Shown: positions 3,526 to 25,956 of the stretch, piece after piece
How the letters are laid out: every line of letters begins with the position of its first letter
How positions within the stretch are numbered: position 1 is the first letter of the stretch
IMG/VR virus record: IMGVR_UViG_3300035681_000018
Location: 6,616 to 70,615 of that record
From: a virus
Reading direction: 5' to 3' (one strand)
DNA: 64,000 nucleotides
Notes under the pieces: model-generated
Database searches by the model: none
Told to the model about the DNA's origin: nothing
What the model saw: only the letters and a program-made list of their open reading frames with translations
Position numbers and translations under genes: made by a program

Positions 3526-3735
3526 ATGGACTACACCGATGATCAGCTCCTTGCCATGGCCATGGCTAACATTGGTGAATACATCACGGACAACTCACCA
3601 CAGTACATCCTGATTGAAGACGATCCTCGTAATGAGGATGACTATGATAGCTGGACTTACGGAATGGAAGTCCTACCTCAAGACCACACTTGGCAGTCAG
3701 ATTCAATTGACGTAAGTCCAAGTGAGGCCGACTAG
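3526..3735 (+). CDS. hypothetical acidic protein
   Basis: 69-aa ORF; stop codon lies inside the tRNA 5' end. Confidence 0.55.
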   Translation: MDYTDDQLLAMAMANIGEYITDNSPQYILIEDDPRNEDDYDSWTYGMEVLPQDHTWQSDSIDVSPSEAD

Positions 3736-3801
3736 CCCAACGGCAGAGGCAAGCGACTTAAAATCGCTACAGTCCCGGTTCGAATCCGAGGTCGGCTACC
3801 A
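3726..3801 (+). tRNA. trnL: tRNA-Leu(UAA), short variable loop, encoded CCA
   Basis: Acceptor GGCCGAC/GTCGGCT, anticodon arm AGCGA-CTTAAAA-TCGCT, T-loop TTCGAAT, ends ACCA. Confidence 0.85.
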
Positions 3802-21329: not shown

Positions 21330-21405
21330 GCACCTGGGTAGGAGTCGAACCTACATCGTCCTGCAGCGGCAGTAACCGTCTTATCCAATTAGCTCGGACC
21401 AGGTG
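21330..21405 (-). ncRNA. tRNA-like element with aberrant D and anticodon arms
   Basis: Perfect acceptor CACCTGG/CCAGGTG and T-arm GTAGG-TTCGACT-CCTAC; no 7-nt anticodon loop. Confidence 0.6.
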
Positions 21406-21406
21406 A

Positions 21407-21480
21407 TCGGAGATGCAGGATTTGAACCTGCGACCCATTGCTCCCAAAGCAATTGCGCTACCAAGCTGCGCTAATCCCCG
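21407..21480 (-). tRNA. trnP: tRNA-Pro(UGG), no encoded CCA
   Basis: CGGGGAT/ATCTCCG acceptor, ATTGC-TTTGGGA-GCAAT anticodon arm, GCAGG-TTCAAAT-CCTGC T-arm. Confidence 0.92.
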
Positions 21481-21484
21481 AGTG

Positions 21485-21736: not shown

Positions 21737-22408
21737 TTATACATCTTCATTAGGTGTTCTCCAAAAGTACTCATCGTTTTCTCCAAGACGACCCCACTTG
21801 GGGGCGTGTTCTACATCAAAGTAGCGTGTTGATACCTTGAAGTCTGGTGTCTTGAGATTGTGATAACTCAATGATGGATCAACCATGCGACACCGATTGT
21901 TGGGATAAGCGCCAATTTGACCGTTGTCCAAAGCCACAATGTTATGGGATTTGTGCTCATCAGGAAACTCCGAGAAGTAAAAATCAGGTTCGTTCCTATG
22001 AGGATGATAGTTGTCTACGGTAAATAAATATGTGCCCTTCATTACACCTGCGCTTCGTGTCAGGACTTCAAAACCCATGTTGAAGATTAAATTTTTTTCA
22101 ACGACCGTAAGTCCATGGTCAAACCCATTCCAGAACTGAAGGTCGGTTAGCTCCAGGTCAGGTGTAGGTTCTTTGGGTTTATCTGGATAGTCTGAGTCCC
22201 ATGCAAGAAATGCACTGATAGGAAGCTTGTCATATAGTGCTCCATACTCAGTTAAGTACGTTTCAAACTGTAATGCTCGACCAGTTAAAGATTTACAAGT
22301 TACCCAGTAACCTGGAGTGTACTCACCATGTCCATCTCTTAAGTCTCGAAGATATTCTCGGCGAACCCATACTTTAATTGGCGGAACGTTGGCAACAAGA
22401 GTTGTCAT
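21737..22408 (-). CDS. conserved cyanophage hypothetical protein
   Basis: LVANVPP.KVWVRREYL.D...GALYDKLPISAF...EHKS.N..L.NGQ..YPNNR. Confidence 0.75.
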   Translation of the reverse strand: MTTLVANVPPIKVWVRREYLRDLRDGHGEYTPGYWVTCKSLTGRALQFETYLTEYGALYDKLPISAFLAWDSDYPDKPKEPTPDLELTDLQFWNGFDHGLTVVEKNLIFNMGFEVLTRSAGVMKGTYLFTVDNYHPHRNEPDFYFSEFPDEHKSHNIVALDNGQIGAYPNNRCRMVDPSLSYHNLKTPDFKVSTRYFDVEHAPKWGRLGENDEYFWRTPNEDV

Positions 22409-22808
22409 GTGTTTTTAAATAAGTAGAGGCAAGAATTAACAACGCAGGGTCGTCATCAAAAAAACCGATCCCAGCGTTGCACTTAGCACATAATAGCCCT
22501 CTGACAACTCCAGTGGCATGGCAATGGTCTACAACTAAAGAATCATTCCTGCCTCTAGCTTTTGGATGCTGCTTGCAACAAGCACATAAACCTTGTTGAC
22601 GTTTTTCCATTTCTTTATATTGTTGTTTTGATATTCCATATTTTTTTTCAATATCTTTCCAACGTTTTATGTTAATGTAATGTACTTTGTTATTTTCTTT
22701 ATAACAATCTTTGCACCAACAAGTATGTCCATCTGAATATCGTTTGTCTATCCGAAAAAACTGTAAAGATAGCTCTTTGCGGCAACGGCTACAAGTTTTA
22801 GTACCCAC
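22374..22808 (-). CDS. Endonuclease VII-like homing endonuclease
   Basis: KYGIS...Q.G.CACC...VDHCHATG.VRGLLC..CN.GIG.F.D. Confidence 0.85.
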   Translation of the reverse strand: MGTKTCSRCRKELSLQFFRIDKRYSDGHTCWCKDCYKENNKVHYINIKRWKDIEKKYGISKQQYKEMEKRQQGLCACCKQHPKARGRNDSLVVDHCHATGVVRGLLCAKCNAGIGFFDDDPALLILASTYLKTHDNSCCQRSAN

Positions 22809-23139: not shown

Positions 23140-23340
23140 TTACTTACCTTCTTTGTAACGACGAGCGGCACGCCCAGCTTTCTTGGCACGTTCAGTGTTA
23201 GGTACAAATTGTTTCCCTTCTCTACTACCAGCTCTTTTCTTTTGGTCGGTCTCCGCACGTTCTTCTTTAGACAGTGATGCCCAAGCTTTCTCTGGTAGGT
23301 AACGCTTGGTGTATCCTTTTTGAATTGCTTTGTCTGCCAT
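23140..23340 (-). CDS. DUF5872-like C-terminal half
   Basis: TKRYLPEKAWASLS.EER..T..KKR.GS..GKQFV.NT. Confidence 0.7.
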   Translation of the reverse strand: MADKAIQKGYTKRYLPEKAWASLSKEERAETDQKKRAGSREGKQFVPNTERAKKAGRAARRYKEGK

Positions 23341-23342
23341 AA

Positions 23343-24263
23343 TTAAGGAATATTGATAGGGTACATAAACGATTTATCTGGCATTTTCATTACAATTGAA
23401 CGACCAAAAAATGTAAGTGGATGTGCACTAGGTGGAGGAGCGGCGCCATTGGGCAATCCCATTCCTGTTACTGAAGTTAAAGCCGCTTCTTGAGAGGGAT
23501 TTAGTGGGGCAATTCCACCAGGAAGTTGTTGCATGGGAACTTTTCTATCTGCAGCACCGTAAACAAAATCATATTTCTCGTCTGCAGTATAACCTTTTTT
23601 GTCGGGACTAAACCAAACATTACCAAAAGAAGTAGCAGGCGAAGTTAAAGGATTATTCTCAGTTGAAGTTGAATAAGGGGTATAGGGAATATCGCCTGTT
23701 CGCATTCTTTTTATTCTGCTCCTTGTTTCAGCTAATGCATTATTTGCAAATTTACGCATTTCAGGCGAATTCATGCCTGCAGCATTCGGAGAGTTCAAGA
23801 TAGTACTCAAAGTTTTTTCTTCTTCTATGGAATCAGTAAGAAGTTTTTGGAAATAATCAGGTTTAGCTATGGCTGTACCAACTTGTTTTGTCATGGCTTC
23901 TGGTATTTCTAGGCCAGTTGCGCCGATGCCGGTGTAATACCTGCCAAAAAGATTTGCGCTAAAAGGTAATGCATTCAATCCTCTTGATACGGTTTGTTGA
24001 ACTACAGGAGAAGCAGCTTGCAATGTTCTTTCCACAACAGGCTGTGCCTTTGCAACACCGGTAGCTGCCGCATCAATTAAAGCTGCTTTTCTGCGATCAA
24101 AATCAGATGGCTGTTGGTTTTTGGGAAGACCAGACCTTTGAAATGCTGCACCAATTGGAGTTGCTGCTCCCCCAGGTAATAACCCACCAAACACATTTTT
24201 ATCTACCTGACCGTAACCACGATTTACGCGATTAAGAAATTTTTGAAAGAAATCGCCCATCAC
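23343..24263 (-). CDS. hypothetical, possibly virion-associated protein
   Basis: 306-aa ORF between the two DUF5872-like halves. Confidence 0.65.
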   Translation of the reverse strand: MMGDFFQKFLNRVNRGYGQVDKNVFGGLLPGGAATPIGAAFQRSGLPKNQQPSDFDRRKAALIDAAATGVAKAQPVVERTLQAASPVVQQTVSRGLNALPFSANLFGRYYTGIGATGLEIPEAMTKQVGTAIAKPDYFQKLLTDSIEEEKTLSTILNSPNAAGMNSPEMRKFANNALAETRSRIKRMRTGDIPYTPYSTSTENNPLTSPATSFGNVWFSPDKKGYTADEKYDFVYGAADRKVPMQQLPGGIAPLNPSQEAALTSVTGMGLPNGAAPPPSAHPLTFFGRSIVMKMPDKSFMYPINIP

Positions 24264-24571
24264 TTACTCTCTTTATATTTCTTGGCAGCAGCTTTAGCCT
24301 TACTACGTTTTTCATACTCATTTTTGGTCTGCCACTTTTCTTCGCCCCATTTCTCCAAAGACTTTTGTTTCTCACCCTTGCCACCTTTATATCCACCACC
24401 TGCTTCTTTGTACTCACTTGCGACAAGCTGAGCCTTACGCGCCGAAATAATTAGTTAGCCTTACGGCTACGACCATTCTCCCGGTTTACCCCCACGGCCT
24501 TCCCGCATAACTTTGTTTTTGATGCGCTCACGCAAGTCTGGTTTTGTGTACTTGCTTTTGTCTTCAGCCAT
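24260..24571 (-). CDS. DUF5872-like N-terminal half interrupted by a 27-nt in-frame coding gap (candidate translational bypass, 94-aa product)
   Basis: MAEDKSKYTKPDLRERIK...GGKPGEWS [27 nt with 3 stops] ARKAQLVASEYKEAGGGYKG...QKSLEKWGEEKWQT; GAGGAAG SD; missed by ORF track. Confidence 0.75.
24443..24472 (-). other. T4 gene 60-like ribosomal bypass element
   Basis: UCG (24472-70), UAG, hairpin UAGCC-GUAA-GGCUA, ACUA-AUUAUU, matched UCG (24445-43). Confidence 0.7.
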
Positions 24572-25172
24572 AACTTCCTCGTTCTTTAAGATAAGTGACT
24601 GCGTTTGTCAATACATCTATATTATCACCAAATAAACCTAGGGCTCTATTGCACTCTTTGCACAATAAACCTCTGAACTCATTGGTTTGATGATTATGGT
24701 CCATGGCTAAAGATTGTTTATCCTTAGGAGGCTCTTGGCAAATTGCGCATAAACCTTCCTGTGCCTCAAACACAATGTCGTATTGTTCTTTTGTTATCTT
24801 TCTGCGTTCGTATTTTTTGTGGTTGTGATGCAATAAATCTTGCCCTTGTTTTTTAACTTTTTGATAATGTTCTTTGTTATTATCTACCCATTTATTCCAG
24901 GTTATTCTGTTACAGGTTTTGCATGAAGAATGAAGATATAATTTCCCATCTTGTTTGCGTCTTCTAAAGCAATCCCAATCTAAATAATGAGCACATTTAG
25001 AACATTGTTTTTGGCCGTCTGCTCCATACAAAAGCCTAAATCGACGATTGACTAAAGATCTGCAATCCTTGCATACGCTGTCTCTTTTTATATTGCCGGC
25101 TGAGTTGTACCCTTTGTTTGCAAAATTTTCATACGGCTTTCTAGTTCCGCATTCCCGGCAAAGCTTTTGCAT
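24564..25172 (-). CDS. Endonuclease VII-like homing endonuclease with two Zn-finger repeats
   Basis: CRECG..CKDC, CSKC..CKTC, Q.GLCAIC...MDHNHQTNEFRGLLCKECNRALG. Confidence 0.85.
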   Translation of the reverse strand: MQKLCRECGTRKPYENFANKGYNSAGNIKRDSVCKDCRSLVNRRFRLLYGADGQKQCSKCAHYLDWDCFRRRKQDGKLYLHSSCKTCNRITWNKWVDNNKEHYQKVKKQGQDLLHHNHKKYERRKITKEQYDIVFEAQEGLCAICQEPPKDKQSLAMDHNHQTNEFRGLLCKECNRALGLFGDNIDVLTNAVTYLKERGSYG

Positions 25173-25207
25173 TGGTTGGTTTGTGCTTTTCTTACTATAG
25201 CACAAAA

Positions 25208-25304
25208 TCACTGCCCAGGTTTTCCACCTTTAGATCCTGCCATCACGCGATCTTTAATATGTTCGCGTAATTCAGGCTTAGTGTATTTATTTTTTTTCTG
25301 ACAT
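25208..25304 (-). pseudogene. decayed duplicate N-terminus of the DUF5872-like gene
   Basis: MSEK-(frameshift in A8)-KYTKPELREHIKDRVMAGSKGGKPGQ-TGA; ends at the conserved Trp position. Confidence 0.8.
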
Positions 25305-25305
25305 G

Positions 25306-25563
25306 TCAAATAAATGAATTAGGTGTTTTTAAACGAATATTAGTTGGTCTACCTGCACCAAGATTAGGCACAAATGTTTTCATTTGTTCATCATATTTAA
25401 CCGGAGTACTTGGCCCTTGATTAACCTGGGATAGTTCAAAGCTATTTTGTTGAAGAATACTGTTTAAAAAATTATTAAACGGTTGTGTAGGATTGTAAGT
25501 TTCAACTCCACCAAGGGAAACCTGAAAGGGAGTTGACAAACCATATATGTTTAAAGGTTGCAT
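25306..25563 (-). CDS. hypothetical protein
   Basis: 85-aa ORF. Confidence 0.5.
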   Translation of the reverse strand: MQPLNIYGLSTPFQVSLGGVETYNPTQPFNNFLNSILQQNSFELSQVNQGPSTPVKYDEQMKTFVPNLGAGRPTNIRLKTPNSFI

Positions 25564-25686
25564 ACATCTTTTTTTTCTTTTAGTATTTTAGCCCACTTAC
25601 ATGGACGTGCTATCGCTTCTTCTATTTCCTTACTCATGATGTAAGGAAATTCTTTCGTTAATCTTGCAAAGTATTTTTCGAGGCGT

Positions 25687-25956
25687 TCAGCCTCGGAAGG
25701 AATGTGGCACTTCATGGTTGATATCAAATTTCTCAATGATCATGTCAATTTTTTCCAGGGAATCAAGACGACACATCAACTCCGTAATTGCATTGATGGT
25801 AACGGGGTGCTCAGTGCGTGCTGCAAAAGCAAGTGCATCGCGCAGATGACGACCTGCTTCATCCAAGGATTCTTTAACTTGATTAGAAAGAGCCATTACT
25901 TTTCTTGGCAGTACAACTAGATTAACACCAGATCCAACCGATTTGATAGGAGTCAA
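25687..25956 (-). CDS. hypothetical cyanophage protein (likely start MALSNQV)
   Basis: ALS.QV.ESL.EA..LRDALAFAAR.E.P motif. Confidence 0.65.
   Translation of the reverse strand: MTPIKSVGSGVNLVVLPRKVMALSNQVKESLDEAGRHLRDALAFAARTEHPVTINAITELMCRLDSLEKIDMIIEKFDINHEVPHSFRG

What the first reader, a model, noticed from the sequence alone, without database searches (positions are those of the whole stretch)
24260..25304. Candidate minimal ribosome-bypass (hop) element coupled to a homing endonuclease, resembling the T4 gene 60/mobA cassette
SEEN: On the - strand, a gene with a good SD (GAGGAAG, ATG 24571) encodes MAEDKSKYTKPDLRERIK...GGKPGEW-S34. It then reads UCG UAG CCG UAA GGC UAA CUA AUU AUU UCG GCG CGU AAG GCU. 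Removing 27 nt between the two identical UCG codons restores the family motif W-S-A-R-K-A-Q-L and an otherwise intact 94-aa ORF. The take-off codon is followed at once by UAG within a hairpin UAGCC-GUAA-GGCUA, extendable by UGGU/ACUA. An EndoVII-type endonuclease gene overlaps the start codon. Beyond it lies a decayed copy of the same N-terminus that breaks at the Trp codon, one codon from the insert position. KNOWN (from memory): the 50-nt T4 gene 60 gap starts GGA|UAGCC-UUCG-GGCUA-UCUA and ends AUUAUU-GGA, and it protects against the neighbouring mobA endonuclease. The insert here has the same UAGCC/GGCUA stem, nCUA and AUUAUU-before-landing sequence, with a different tetraloop, codon and host gene. 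INFERENCE: the insert destroys the nuclease target while ribosomes hop over it, giving a ~27-nt bypass element in a cyanophage. CGUAAGGCU occurs in both the hairpin and the downstream exon, so the element may have arisen by local duplication (convergence).
Basis: partly seen in the sequence, partly recalled or inferred. Interest (0 to 1): 0.95.

Follow-up and report, generated by a model that had tools for sequence, protein, structure and literature searches.

The report
Homing-endonuclease cassette with ribosome-hop gap
A selfish nuclease gene has inserted into a small conserved gene of a lake phage related to a Synechococcus phage, bringing a replacement gene start and 27 untranslatable bases that ribosomes most likely hop over, a natural counterpart of the rare phage T4 gene 60 bypass that has not been tested at the bench.

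Summary
On the - strand a 34-codon start (24571-24470) ends in TCG. Then come TAG, a 5-bp hairpin with a GTAA loop, an A/T-rich spacer and a second TCG (24445-24443), which opens a 60-codon remainder.

The 766 bases 25208-24443 form one mobile cassette: an Endonuclease_7-type homing nuclease, the replacement gene start and the gap. Contigs from two other lake metagenomes carry the empty site.

Across viral and metagenome contigs I found 31 gap variants of 23-33 bases, in all three frames:
- all 31 have take-off TCG followed by TAG;
- 30 keep the hairpin, always with a GNRA loop;
- landing is TCG in 29, TCA in 1 and TCT in 1;
- the downstream frame was never broken.

Loci that have lost the nuclease keep both halves under purifying selection and an unchanged gap.

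Best reading: programmed ribosomal bypass, confidence about 0.78. There is no RNA, protein or bench evidence.

The nuclease, the host gene and the nascent peptide are unrelated to T4 MobA/gene 60. No Shine-Dalgarno-like triplet lies 5-7 bases before landing. I class it as a new variant of a known kind.

Earlier reports of this scan describe the same cassette family on other genomes.

The parts
25209..25309 (-). Left exon remnant (psiN). This is the invaded gene's own first ~32 codons, cut at TG of the Trp codon. In this window it is frameshifted relative to its ATG (25304-25302). It is the presumed left homology arm for homing.
   Evidence: 87% identical to uninterrupted alleles over 31 residues, at the fixed position -731..-639 before the new start; the empty-site joint begins at 25209.
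24443..25208 (-). Mobile cassette, 766 bases: leader, nuclease gene, replacement gene start, untranslated gap and landing codon.
   Evidence: contigs of runs X5 and X6 skip exactly 24443-25208 and carry 4 other letters there, restoring Gln-Trp-Ser-Ala; the L004/L044 pair gives the same boundaries (764 bases).
24564..25172 (-). Homing endonuclease gene, 202 aa from the ATG (an alternative GTG lies at 25211). His-Me/HNH finger of the Endonuclease VII type.
   Evidence: PF02945, E 1.5e-22; 77.7-97% identical copies stand directly before the gene start in the gapped loci that keep a full nuclease; family of free-standing phage 'endonuclease VII/HNH' genes.
24574..24580 (-). Shine-Dalgarno-like GAGGAAG for the replacement gene start, lying inside the 3' end of the nuclease gene.
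   Evidence: all 8 loci with nuclease remnants keep the last 19-62 codons of the nuclease, which hold this site.
24470..24571 (-). Replacement gene start N' (34 codons) carried by the cassette. The last codon TCG (24472-24470) is the proposed take-off codon.
   Evidence: pN/pS 0.040/0.496 among 28 distinct sequences. TCG in 23 of 23 distinct sequences found by the protein search.
24456..24469 (-). Take-off hairpin TAGCC-GTAA-GGCTA. It begins with the TAG stop that would sit in the A site.
   Evidence: centroid -7.1 kcal/mol; stem kept in 30 of 31 gap variants; loops GTAA, GTGA, GCAA, GGGA, GAGA and GAAA are all GNRA.
24446..24455 (-). A/T-rich spacer of the gap (ACTAATTATT).
   Evidence: spacers are 64-100% A+T in 31 variants; 0 of 26 and 1 of 26 gap differences in pairs whose synonymous sites differ by 0.30 and 0.63.
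24443..24445 (-). Proposed landing codon TCG. It belongs to the cassette, because the empty site has TCT.
   Evidence: empty site. TCG in 29, TCA in 1 and TCT in 1 of 31 variants. TCG is used in only 3 of 39 distinct uninterrupted alleles.
24260..24442 (-). Right exon: 60 codons (ARKAQLVASEYKE...) plus the TGA stop. This is the invaded gene's own C-terminal part.
   Evidence: weak DUF5872 match; open in every gapped allele.

Best explanation
A 766-base homing cassette sits inside a small conserved phage gene, a DUF5872-like gene of 94 codons, at its Trp33-Ser34 codons.

The cassette carries three things:
1. an Endonuclease VII-type HNH nuclease gene;
2. its own copy of the first 34 codons, translationally coupled to the nuclease gene;
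3. a 27-base coding gap: 24 untranslated bases plus the landing codon.

Proposed course of events:
- The nuclease cuts uninterrupted alleles at or next to the Trp-Ser codons (inferred from the insertion point).
- Repair copies the cassette in, using the old gene start and the C-terminal exon as homology arms. The presence/absence polymorphism and the fixed junctions are shown; the repair mechanism is inferred.
- The gap keeps the target from being rebuilt in the carrier (inferred).
- The gene stays functional because ribosomes that reach TCG with TAG in the A site do not terminate. The GNRA hairpin that starts with TAG forms there. Peptidyl-tRNA-Ser leaves the take-off codon. The mRNA slides through the G-poor, A/U-rich spacer. 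The same tRNA re-pairs with the second TCG. Decoding resumes at the Ala codon and gives one 94-residue protein.

The hop is inferred from comparative sequence data only.
For: Mobility
- All 30 of 30 gapped alleles have the nuclease or its remnant directly upstream. 0 of 51 uninterrupted alleles have it adjacent; 3 of the 51 have only a distant paralogue 1.2-2.4 kb away.
- L004 and L044 are 97% identical in their flanks and differ by the cassette.
- Empty-site contigs occur in runs X5 and X6.
- Cassette-borne N' is often much less diverged than the C exon beside it, e.g. L085/L127 pS 0.22 against 0.54.

Frame-independent joining at a matched codon
- There are 31 gap variants of 23, 24, 25, 26, 27, 28, 29 and 33 bases.
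- In every one the downstream frame opens at TCG (29), TCA (1) or TCT (1) and then reads SARKAQ.
- In 14 of 31 variants no start codon of any kind (ATG, GTG, TTG, CTG, ATT, ATA, ATC) lies between the last in-frame stop and the landing codon. In 7 of them TGA directly precedes it.
- Uninterrupted alleles use TCG for this Ser in only 3 of 39 distinct sequences and AGY in 21 of 39.

Selection after the insertion
- 11 of 45 distinct gapped regions have lost most (8) or all (3) of the nuclease gene. They still keep N', gap and C exon intact.
- The nuclease-less pair L099/L113 shows equal synonymous divergence in both halves (pS 0.29 and 0.30), low pN (0.04 and 0.06) and 0 of 26 differences in the gap.
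- L126/L128 show pS 0.64/0.62 with 1 of 26 gap differences.
- Family-wide pN/pS: N' 0.040/0.496 and 0.137/0.636; C 0.134/0.793 and 0.119/0.672.
- In the set found by protein search, which is unbiased for the hairpin, third-position diversity of N' is 0.33. Take-off TCG and TAG are invariant in 23 of 23, and the stem is kept in 22 of 23.

No intact second copy
- The 70.6-kb genome record holds only the gapped gene and the remnant.

Structure
- An AlphaFold2 model of an uninterrupted homologue puts the junction at the N-cap of helix 35-47. That helix, with helix 11-23, forms the best-predicted part of the model (blocks with pLDDT about 90).

Agreement with the gene 60 family
- The features match those that Manning and Atkins list for natural gene 60 homologues: matched codons with wobble exceptions, UAG after take-off, a stable tetraloop hairpin including GNRA loops, an AU-rich 3' part, and gaps down to 20 nt (Results read).
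Against: - There is no direct evidence. No RNA run holds the stretch, there are no protein data, and no cultured phage carries the cassette.
- The take-off codon never varies, so there is no covariation between take-off and landing. The matched pair could partly be identity by descent within one cassette lineage.
- Many loci have an intact old gene start. Those invasions are recent, so their intact C exons prove little.
- Most variants were found with a DNA pattern that required the hairpin. Its conservation in those sets is therefore by construction.
- One allele (L038/L217) has lost the hairpin yet keeps both halves.
- No Shine-Dalgarno-like triplet lies 5-7 bases before landing in 0 of 31 variants.
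- The hairpin is only 5 bp, and its folding z-score is not significant.
- In 17 of 31 variants an in-frame ATT, ATA or ATG lies between the last stop and the landing codon.
- The family tolerates natural splitting at another position in many viral contigs.
Confidence: 0.78

Rival explanations
1. Split gene. The cassette cuts the gene into two separately made polypeptides, a 34-residue N' and a C fragment started inside or after the gap. These work together without being joined.
For: - In 17 of 31 gap variants an in-frame ATT or ATA, or in the 23- and 26-base variants an ATG, precedes the landing codon. An AGG/GAGG lies 9-19 bases upstream in the hairpin arm.
- In the 49-codon subfamily a Met codon follows six codons after landing.
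- The family is naturally split into two ORFs at another position in many viral contigs. Its second module is a separate gene in this window.
Against: - 14 of 31 variants have no start codon of any kind between the last in-frame stop and the landing codon.
- The six codons SARKAQ before the internal Met are invariant in protein in all 43 distinct genes, so they are translated.
- The only Shine-Dalgarno-like bases are locked in the hairpin stem.
- A split gene would not need TCG, rare at this Ser in uninterrupted alleles (3 of 39), on both sides of the gap in 29 of 31 variants.
Confidence: 0.08
2. Dead gene. The cassette inactivates a dispensable gene, and the C exon looks intact only because invasions are recent and each homing event moves the cassette into a fresh allele.
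For: - The old gene start upstream of the nuclease is 100% identical in protein to known uninterrupted alleles in several loci (L004, L010, L017, L086, L131), so many invasions are recent.
- C exons are often more diverged than N' between loci, as expected from repeated homing.
Against: - 11 of 45 distinct regions have lost most or all of the nuclease and still have both halves open.
- Nuclease-less L099/L113 diverged equally in both halves, with pN/pS about 0.14-0.2 and no change in the 26 gap bases.
- N', which travels with the cassette and is not refreshed by homing, has pN 0.040 against pS 0.496.
- Nuclease remnants always keep the ribosome-binding region of N'.
- There are 0 frame-breaking changes in the C exon of 43 distinct viral-contig genes. 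Of 75 metagenome genes, 72 reach a stop after 48-63 codons and 3 run off a contig end. Gap length changed many times over the same genes.
Confidence: 0.07
3. The gap is removed from the RNA, by cutting at the hairpin and ligation or by polymerase skipping, so ribosomes read a continuous message.
For: Nothing speaks for it directly. It is compatible with frame-independent gap lengths and with a conserved hairpin. RNA data are lacking.
Against: - No known bacterial or phage mechanism removes a 23-33-base segment of this form. This rests on my own knowledge; no search addressed it.
- RNA removal would not require a stop codon directly after a codon that matches the one at the far end, nor an A/U-rich, G-poor spacer.
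- These are the features listed for ribosomal bypass in the gene 60 family.
Confidence: 0.04

Closest known systems
Phage T4 gene 39 / mobA / gene 60 element with its 50-nt translational bypass, and its homologues in Topo2L genes of myoviruses (Manning and Atkins, bioRxiv 10.1101/2022.08.31.505936: abstract, Results and passages of the Discussion read; T4 record NC_000866 read)
   Same: - A homing endonuclease gene, an element-borne replacement of the coding sequence next to the cut site, and an untranslated gap travel together as one cassette inside the target gene.
- The gene start overlaps the 3' end of the nuclease gene out of frame.
- Take-off and landing codons match, with third-base wobble exceptions.
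- TAG comes directly after take-off.
- The hairpin starts with that TAG and has the same five stem bases as T4 (TAGCC/GGCTA). Its tip is a stable tetraloop; GNRA loops also occur in some gene 60 homologues.
[quoted passage not shown]
- Some loci lose the nuclease but keep the gap.
   Different: - The host gene is unrelated: a 94-codon DUF5872-like gene, not topoisomerase.
- The nuclease is unrelated at sequence level: PF02945, with no alignment to the T4 mobA region (best E 6.3).
- The nascent peptide shows no similarity.
- The gap is 23-33 bases against 50 in T4; the preprint reports 20 in one Aeromonas clade.
- The stem is 5 bp against about 10 in T4.
- 0 of 31 variants have a Shine-Dalgarno-like triplet 5-7 bases before landing.
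- The whole N-terminal third is duplicated and the old copy is left behind, rather than the gene being split into two functional ORFs with added tails.
- The phages are related to Synechococcus phage S-EIVl and come from lake water.
- It is untested experimentally.
Translational bypass elements ('byps', 27-55 nt) in mitochondrial genes of the yeast Magnusiomyces capitatus
   Same: Short untranslated inserts in coding sequence with matched take-off and landing codons and a hairpin, mobile within genomes, and of similar length.
   Different: They lie in eukaryotic organelles and not in a phage. They are not linked to a homing endonuclease gene. There are many copies per genome, where here there is one site.
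Free-standing and intron- or intein-borne homing endonucleases of phages ('intronless homing'; endonuclease VII/HNH genes between or inside phage genes)
   Same: A nuclease gene of a very common phage family: 1795 phage records match. It is inserted at its presumed target with flanking homology, shows presence/absence polymorphism, and later decays.
   Different: There is neither RNA nor protein splicing. Continuity of the host protein appears to be restored at translation by a hop.
Candidate regulatory bypassing in Streptomyces phages (RNA Biol 2023, PMC10732093; seen only as a search listing with the start of its abstract)
   Same: A proposed phage translational bypass outside T4.
   Different: From the listing it concerns the rare UUA codon and regulation. 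The paper was not read, so no closer comparison was made.

Membership tests
Gene 60-type programmed translational bypass (functional class) | Take-off and landing codons are matched and readable by one tRNA | tested here: met
   Take-off is TCG in 31 of 31 variants. Landing is TCG in 29, TCA in 1 and TCT in 1. There is no covariation, because the take-off codon never varies.
Gene 60-type programmed translational bypass (functional class) | [quoted passage not shown] | tested here: met
   TAG in 31 of 31 variants. This includes the 23 of 23 distinct sequences found by protein search.
Gene 60-type programmed translational bypass (functional class) | A take-off stem-loop that includes the stop, with a stable tetraloop | tested here: met
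   A 5-bp stem plus GNRA loop occurs in 30 of 31 variants, with six different GNRA loops. The centroid fold is -7.1 kcal/mol. The stem is shorter than in T4, and it is lost in L038/L217.
Gene 60-type programmed translational bypass (functional class) | A Shine-Dalgarno-like triplet 5-7 nt 5' of the landing codon | tested here: not met
   0 of 31 variants. The nearest AGG/GAG lies in the hairpin arm, 9-19 nt upstream.
Gene 60-type programmed translational bypass (functional class) | An A/U-rich 3' part of the gap | tested here: met
   The spacer is 64-100% A+T in 31 variants.
Gene 60-type programmed translational bypass (functional class) | A nascent-peptide signal that promotes take-off | not testable with these tools
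   N' is a distinct, strongly conserved allele class (pN 0.040). It has no similarity to the gp60 N-terminus. Any role in the exit tunnel is unknown.
Gene 60-type programmed translational bypass (functional class) | A full-length protein made across the gap | not testable with these tools
   No RNA holder is listed, there are no protein data, and no isolate carries the cassette.
MobA mobile element (homologous family of Manning and Atkins) | Inserted in the Topo2L (gene 39) gene of myoviruses | tested here: not met
   The host gene is a 94-codon DUF5872-like gene. The phage is related to S-EIVl.
MobA mobile element (homologous family of Manning and Atkins) | A MobA-type nuclease, or a documented replacement within the same element | tested here: not met
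   The nuclease is PF02945 Endonuclease_7. It has no alignment with the T4 mobA/60.1 region read through with X (best E 6.3). T4's copy is defective and had no Pfam match. No intact MobA was compared.
Homing endonuclease cassette (mobile element) | Presence/absence polymorphism at one exact site between otherwise near-identical genomes | tested here: met
   L004 against L044. Empty-site contigs occur in runs X5 and X6. The association is 30 of 30 against 0 of 51.
Homing endonuclease cassette (mobile element) | The nuclease cleaves the empty allele and not the occupied one | not testable with these tools
   Inferred only, from the insertion point at the Trp-Ser codons.

The most novel reading that the evidence does not exclude
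This is an independently evolved second family of efficient programmed ribosomal bypass in phages. A homing nuclease unrelated to MobA built its own self-immunity gap by duplicating about 15 bases of its target: the hairpin's loop and 3' arm repeat the exon's Arg-Lys-Ala codons. It converged on the T4 solution of a matched codon pair, UAG, a tetraloop hairpin starting at the stop and an A/U-rich run, but with half the length and without the internal Shine-Dalgarno element. Nature has already supplied an allelic series of 23-33 bases, six loop variants, wobble landing codons and one hairpin-less allele. Together with this scan's other unverified notes of nuclease-linked gaps, it would mean that 'hop instead of splice' is a general strategy of selfish nuclease genes.
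Probability: 0.6. Interest if true: 0.9.

Novelty: new variant of a known kind. Interest (0 to 1): 0.82.

Why it matters
For decades the T4 gene 60 bypass was an isolated case. The only broad survey I could read (Manning and Atkins preprint) found homologues exclusively in topoisomerase genes and states that the bypass cassette 'remains unique'.

A second cassette would have several consequences. This one has a different nuclease, a different host gene, a different phage group, a gap half as long and no internal Shine-Dalgarno element.
- It would show that the solution is reachable more than once.
- It would separate the essential signals (matched codons, a stop, a hairpin at the A site, an A/U-rich run) from T4-specific ones.
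- It would give experimenters a natural mutant series.

It also matters for annotation. Gene callers split or drop such genes, and the S-EIVl homologue is already annotated from a late ATG.

My three paper searches found no report of a bypass cassette in this gene family or in cyanophages. Supplements were closed, so the preprint's tables of metagenomic cases could not be checked.

Tried and rejected
- RNA evidence: the look-up of sequencing runs listed no RNA holder. This says nothing either way.
- Cultured phages: tblastn of the read-through protein found only the uninterrupted S-EIVl gene and a Pelagibacter phage. The blastn search gave the same. No isolate is available to work with.
- Covariation of take-off and landing codons: three searches left the take-off codon free. 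None found a take-off codon other than TCG, so this decisive test could not be made.
- The hairpin-agnostic pattern examined 48 new loci. It gave 30 uninterrupted family members, 17 unrelated hits and 1 gapped locus (L217, the contig of L038). No new gap type appeared.
- Homology with T4: the nuclease against the T4 mobA/60.1 region, N' against the gp60 N-terminus, and Pfam on the T4 region all gave nothing. I rejected 'member of the MobA element family'.
- In-frame read-through of three stops is rejected. Gaps of 23, 25, 26, 28 and 29 bases change the frame.
- An alternative genetic code is rejected. TAG, TAA and TGA all occur within gaps, and TGA or TAA ends the gene.
- Folding energy alone: the z-scores of -0.87 and -1.40 are not significant, so I did not use them as evidence.
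- My Nei-Gojobori script gave pS above 0.75 for one set, so no corrected dN/dS could be given there. I report raw pN and pS.
- The loop tally printed was sliced one base off. I read the loops from the printed gap sequences instead.
- The viral and metagenome collections overlap: some IMG/VR contigs are the same JGI contigs. Rows are therefore not independent, and I count distinct sequences or gap variants.
- In one search one locus (L125) was left out because its gene start is cut by the contig end. In one search, 2 family loci (L289, L359) were cut by contig ends and 25 hits were unrelated.
- The AlphaFold2 model (mean pLDDT 76.5) was not searched against structure libraries.


Full report
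**1. What is in the window**

The - strand of 23900-25700 and the ORF list show the following, in reading order.
- An upstream gene ends near 25551, followed by an 85-codon ORF (25563-25306).
- A short reading frame (25309-25208) encodes ...KYTKPELREHIKDRVMAGSKGGKPGQ and stops at TGA, where its relatives have the Trp codon.
- A nuclease ORF runs from 25172 (ATG; alternative GTG at 25211) to 24564.
- A 34-codon frame starts at ATG 24571, behind GAGGAAG, and overlaps the nuclease stop.

That frame ends in TGG TCG. Next come:
- TAG CCG TAA GGC TAA CTA ATT ATT (24469-24446);
- TCG (24445-24443);
- 60 further codons, to TGA at 24262-24260.

Read through with X at the three stops, the frame is otherwise open.

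Pfam gives Endonuclease_7 for the nuclease (E 1.5e-22). It gives only a weak DUF5872 match for the C-terminal part (E 0.024, below the curated cut-off).

The genome is an IMG/VR virus record of 70.6 kb, estimated 89% complete. It holds no other copy of the gene apart from the truncated one. Its nearest cultured relative in this region is Synechococcus phage S-EIVl. There the gene is uninterrupted, has no nuclease beside it, and is annotated from a late ATG.

**2. The insert is the tail of a mobile cassette**

A protein-guided scan of viral contigs kept 80 loci out of 160 relatives. With the window that makes 81 alleles, of which 30 have a gap and 51 do not.

Among the 30 gapped alleles, an Endonuclease_7 gene ends five bases into the gene start in every one:
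- 23 are full length;
- 1 is cut by a contig end;
- 6 are remnants of the last 19-42 codons.

None of the 51 uninterrupted alleles has an adjacent nuclease. Three have a distant paralogue 1.2-2.4 kb away.

L004 (gapped) and L044 (uninterrupted) are 97-98% identical in their flanks.
- The old gene start of L004 matches L044 up to the first base of the Trp codon.
- Homology resumes exactly at the second TCG.
- The 764 bases between are the cassette.

In this window the same boundaries come from independent data. Contigs of two lake-water runs that are not flagged as possible sources (X5, X6) join 24442 to 25209. They skip 766 bases and carry four other letters there. On the - strand this restores Gln-Trp-Ser(TCT)-Ala.

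So the 'decayed copy' is the invaded gene's own left exon, and the second TCG comes with the cassette. The left exon stands at a fixed distance (-734 to -639) in 25 of the 32 distinct regions with a full nuclease. In several of them it is still 100% identical in protein to known uninterrupted alleles, so many invasions are recent. In this window it is frameshifted relative to its ATG.

**3. A natural series of gaps**

Three pattern scans followed.
- A DNA pattern that fixed Glu-Trp, left the next codon free and required the hairpin stem found 49 viral contigs.
- The same pattern found 102 metagenome stretches. Of these, 75 are complete family members, 2 are cut by contig ends and 25 are unrelated.
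- A pattern agnostic to the hairpin (the Gly-Gly-Lys-Pro-Gly-Glu-Trp codons) added 48 new loci: 30 uninterrupted family members, 17 unrelated hits and 1 gapped locus, the already known hairpin-less L038 contig.

The viral set gives 78 parsed rows and 43 distinct gene sequences. The collections overlap, so I count gap variants. There are 31:

| Gap length (bases) | Variants |
|---|---|
| 23 | 1 |
| 24 | 11 |
| 25 | 1 |
| 26 | 1 |
| 27 | 5 |
| 28 | 4 |
| 29 | 7 |
| 33 | 1 |

All three reading-frame relations occur. Across the 31 variants:
- take-off is TCG followed by TAG in all 31;
- the stem TAGCC/GGCTA is kept in 30;
- the loops are GTAA, GTGA, GCAA, GGGA, GAGA or GAAA, all of the GNRA type;
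- the frame that continues with SARKAQ... opens at TCG in 29, at TCA in 1 and at TCT in 1.

Uninterrupted alleles use TCG for this Ser in only 3 of 39 distinct sequences, and AGT or AGC in 21 of 39. TCG is also the rarest Ser codon in the window's long ORFs, at 10.9%.

In 14 of 31 variants no ATG, GTG, TTG, CTG, ATT, ATA or ATC lies between the last in-frame stop and the landing codon. In 7 of them TGA directly precedes it.

The downstream frame was never broken.
- In the 43 distinct viral-contig genes it runs 48-63 codons.
- In the metagenome set, 72 of 75 reach a stop after 48-63 codons and 3 run off the contig.

**4. Is the gapped gene still under selection?**

Recent homing could explain intact C exons, so I looked for old insertions. 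Of 45 distinct gapped regions:
- 32 have a full nuclease;
- 2 are cut by contig ends;
- 8 keep only the last 19-62 codons of the nuclease, the part that holds the ribosome-binding site of N';
- 3 (L099, L113, L128) have no nuclease at all.

All of these keep N', the gap and the C exon.

Two pairs are informative.

| Pair | N' pS / pN | C exon pS / pN | Gap differences |
|---|---|---|---|
| L099 / L113 (both nuclease-less) | 0.29 / 0.04 | 0.30 / 0.06 | 0 of 26 |
| L126 / L128 | 0.64 / 0.03 | 0.62 / 0.06 | 1 of 26 |

In L099/L113, 12 of the 26 gap bases were fixed by the search pattern. The other 14 were free.

N' travels with the cassette and is not refreshed by homing. It has pN 0.040 against pS 0.496 in one subfamily and 0.137 against 0.636 in the other.

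In the set found by protein search alone (23 distinct sequences):
- third-position diversity of N' is 0.33;
- TCG and TAG are invariant;
- the stem is kept in 22 of 23.

These results fit a translated, joined gene with a functional RNA element. They do not fit a decaying pseudogene.

An AlphaFold2 model of an uninterrupted homologue has mean pLDDT 76.5. It places the junction at the start of helix 35-47. That helix, with helix 11-23, is the best-predicted part of the model. This is weak support that the two halves belong to one fold.

**5. Mechanism**

Shown:
- the cassette structure and its exact junctions;
- its presence/absence polymorphism;
- the invariance of take-off codon, stop and hairpin;
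- the frame-independent opening of the C exon at a matching codon;
- purifying selection on both halves and on the gap.

Inferred:
- the nuclease cuts the empty allele at the Trp-Ser codons;
- the gap prevents self-cleavage;
- ribosomes carrying peptidyl-tRNA-Ser leave TCG when TAG and the hairpin occupy the A site, slide over the spacer, and re-pair at the second TCG.

The TCA and TCT landing variants fit re-pairing by one tRNA with wobble, as Manning and Atkins describe for natural gene 60 homologues.

The take-off region looks like a mutated copy of the target. After TGG TC., the cassette reads TAGC and then CGTAAGGCT. The exon reads GCG and then CGTAAGGCT. CGT AAG GCT is a common state of the Arg-Lys-Ala codons in uninterrupted alleles.

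**6. Comparison with what is known**

The T4 record confirms the recalled sequence of the gene 60 gap. The five stem bases are identical to ours. The other resemblances (ACTA after the stem, ATTATT before landing) are not family features.

The Manning and Atkins preprint (abstract, Results and passages of the Discussion read) reports the following:
- bypass cassettes only in Topo2L genes;
- always within the MobA element, or with GIY-YIG or VSR replacements;
- gaps of 20-50 nt;
- a Shine-Dalgarno-like triplet 5-7 nt before landing in nearly all cases.

Here the differences are:
- the nuclease is of another family, with no similarity to the T4 mobA region;
- the nascent peptide is unrelated;
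- the host gene is different;
- 0 of 31 variants have the triplet at 5-7 nt.

I therefore file it as working like gene 60 but not as a member of the MobA element family: a new variant of a known kind.

Paper searches for bypassing with homing endonucleases, with cyanophages, and with take-off/landing terms returned no description of this cassette. Supplements were closed.

**7. Earlier findings of this scan**

After forming the reading above, I looked up earlier notes. Six earlier reports describe the same cassette family on other genomes, with the same interpretation: e1-6091049, e1-6024285, e1-6091044, e1-6185076, e1-6104761 and e1-6129303. Two notes (e1-6185068, e1-6215690) describe the split DUF5872 arrangement also seen here. 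These are unverified AI notes and are not independent evidence.

**8. Verdict**

Programmed bypass is the best explanation, at about 0.78.

The main gaps are:
- no RNA or protein data;
- no covariation of the codon pair;
- ascertainment of most variants through a hairpin-containing pattern;
- one hairpin-less allele that remains unexplained.

Noticed in passing
window 22374-22808 (-): A second, shorter Endonuclease VII-type nuclease gene (144 codons) lies 1.8 kb downstream, between a Lys-rich 55-codon ORF and a 223-codon ORF. It is 39% identical to the cassette nuclease over 150 residues. Similar distant paralogues occur in L014, L021, L022, L070 and L074.
   Followed up: partly
window 23140-23340 (-) and 23343-24263 (-): The second module of the DUF5872 family (...RYLPEKAWASLSKEER...) is a separate 66-codon gene. 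A 306-codon ORF of no Pfam family separates it from the gapped first module. In many other viral contigs the family is split into two ORFs just after GGGY.
   Followed up: partly
L038 / L217 (same contig), gap region: One gapped allele has lost the hairpin: its stem is replaced by A/T-rich bases. It keeps TCG-TAG, the landing TCG, a full nuclease gene and both halves open. It is either a decaying cassette or evidence that a hairpin is not strictly needed.
   Followed up: no
L088, L096 and metagenome L299, L303 (23- and 26-base gaps): In these two gap lengths the landing frame stays open back to the ATG inside the Glu-Trp codons (GAATGG). An independent ORF, or a frameshift, could also reach the C exon there.
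   Followed up: no
window 3726-3801 (+) and 21405-21481 (-): The phage carries tRNA-Leu(TAA) and tRNA-Pro(TGG) genes. No tRNA-Ser gene lies in the window.
   Followed up: no
L273, L294, L300, L306, L310, L327, L333, L335, L343, L345 (metagenome contigs): An unrelated recurring sequence was hit by the same pattern, partly in contigs labelled gut metagenome. It reads ...Glu-Trp-Glu, TAG, then a CCG-AAA-GG hairpin followed by a T-run, and looks like a gene end with a terminator.
   Followed up: no
window 25306-25563 (-): An 85-codon ORF lies between the upstream gene and the old gene start. It has no counterpart at this place in S-EIVl, where the upstream gene overlaps the start of the small gene.
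   Followed up: no
L004 3509-4723 versus L044 3482: A further 1.2-kb presence/absence difference lies just downstream of the gene between two otherwise 97-98% identical contigs.
   Followed up: no
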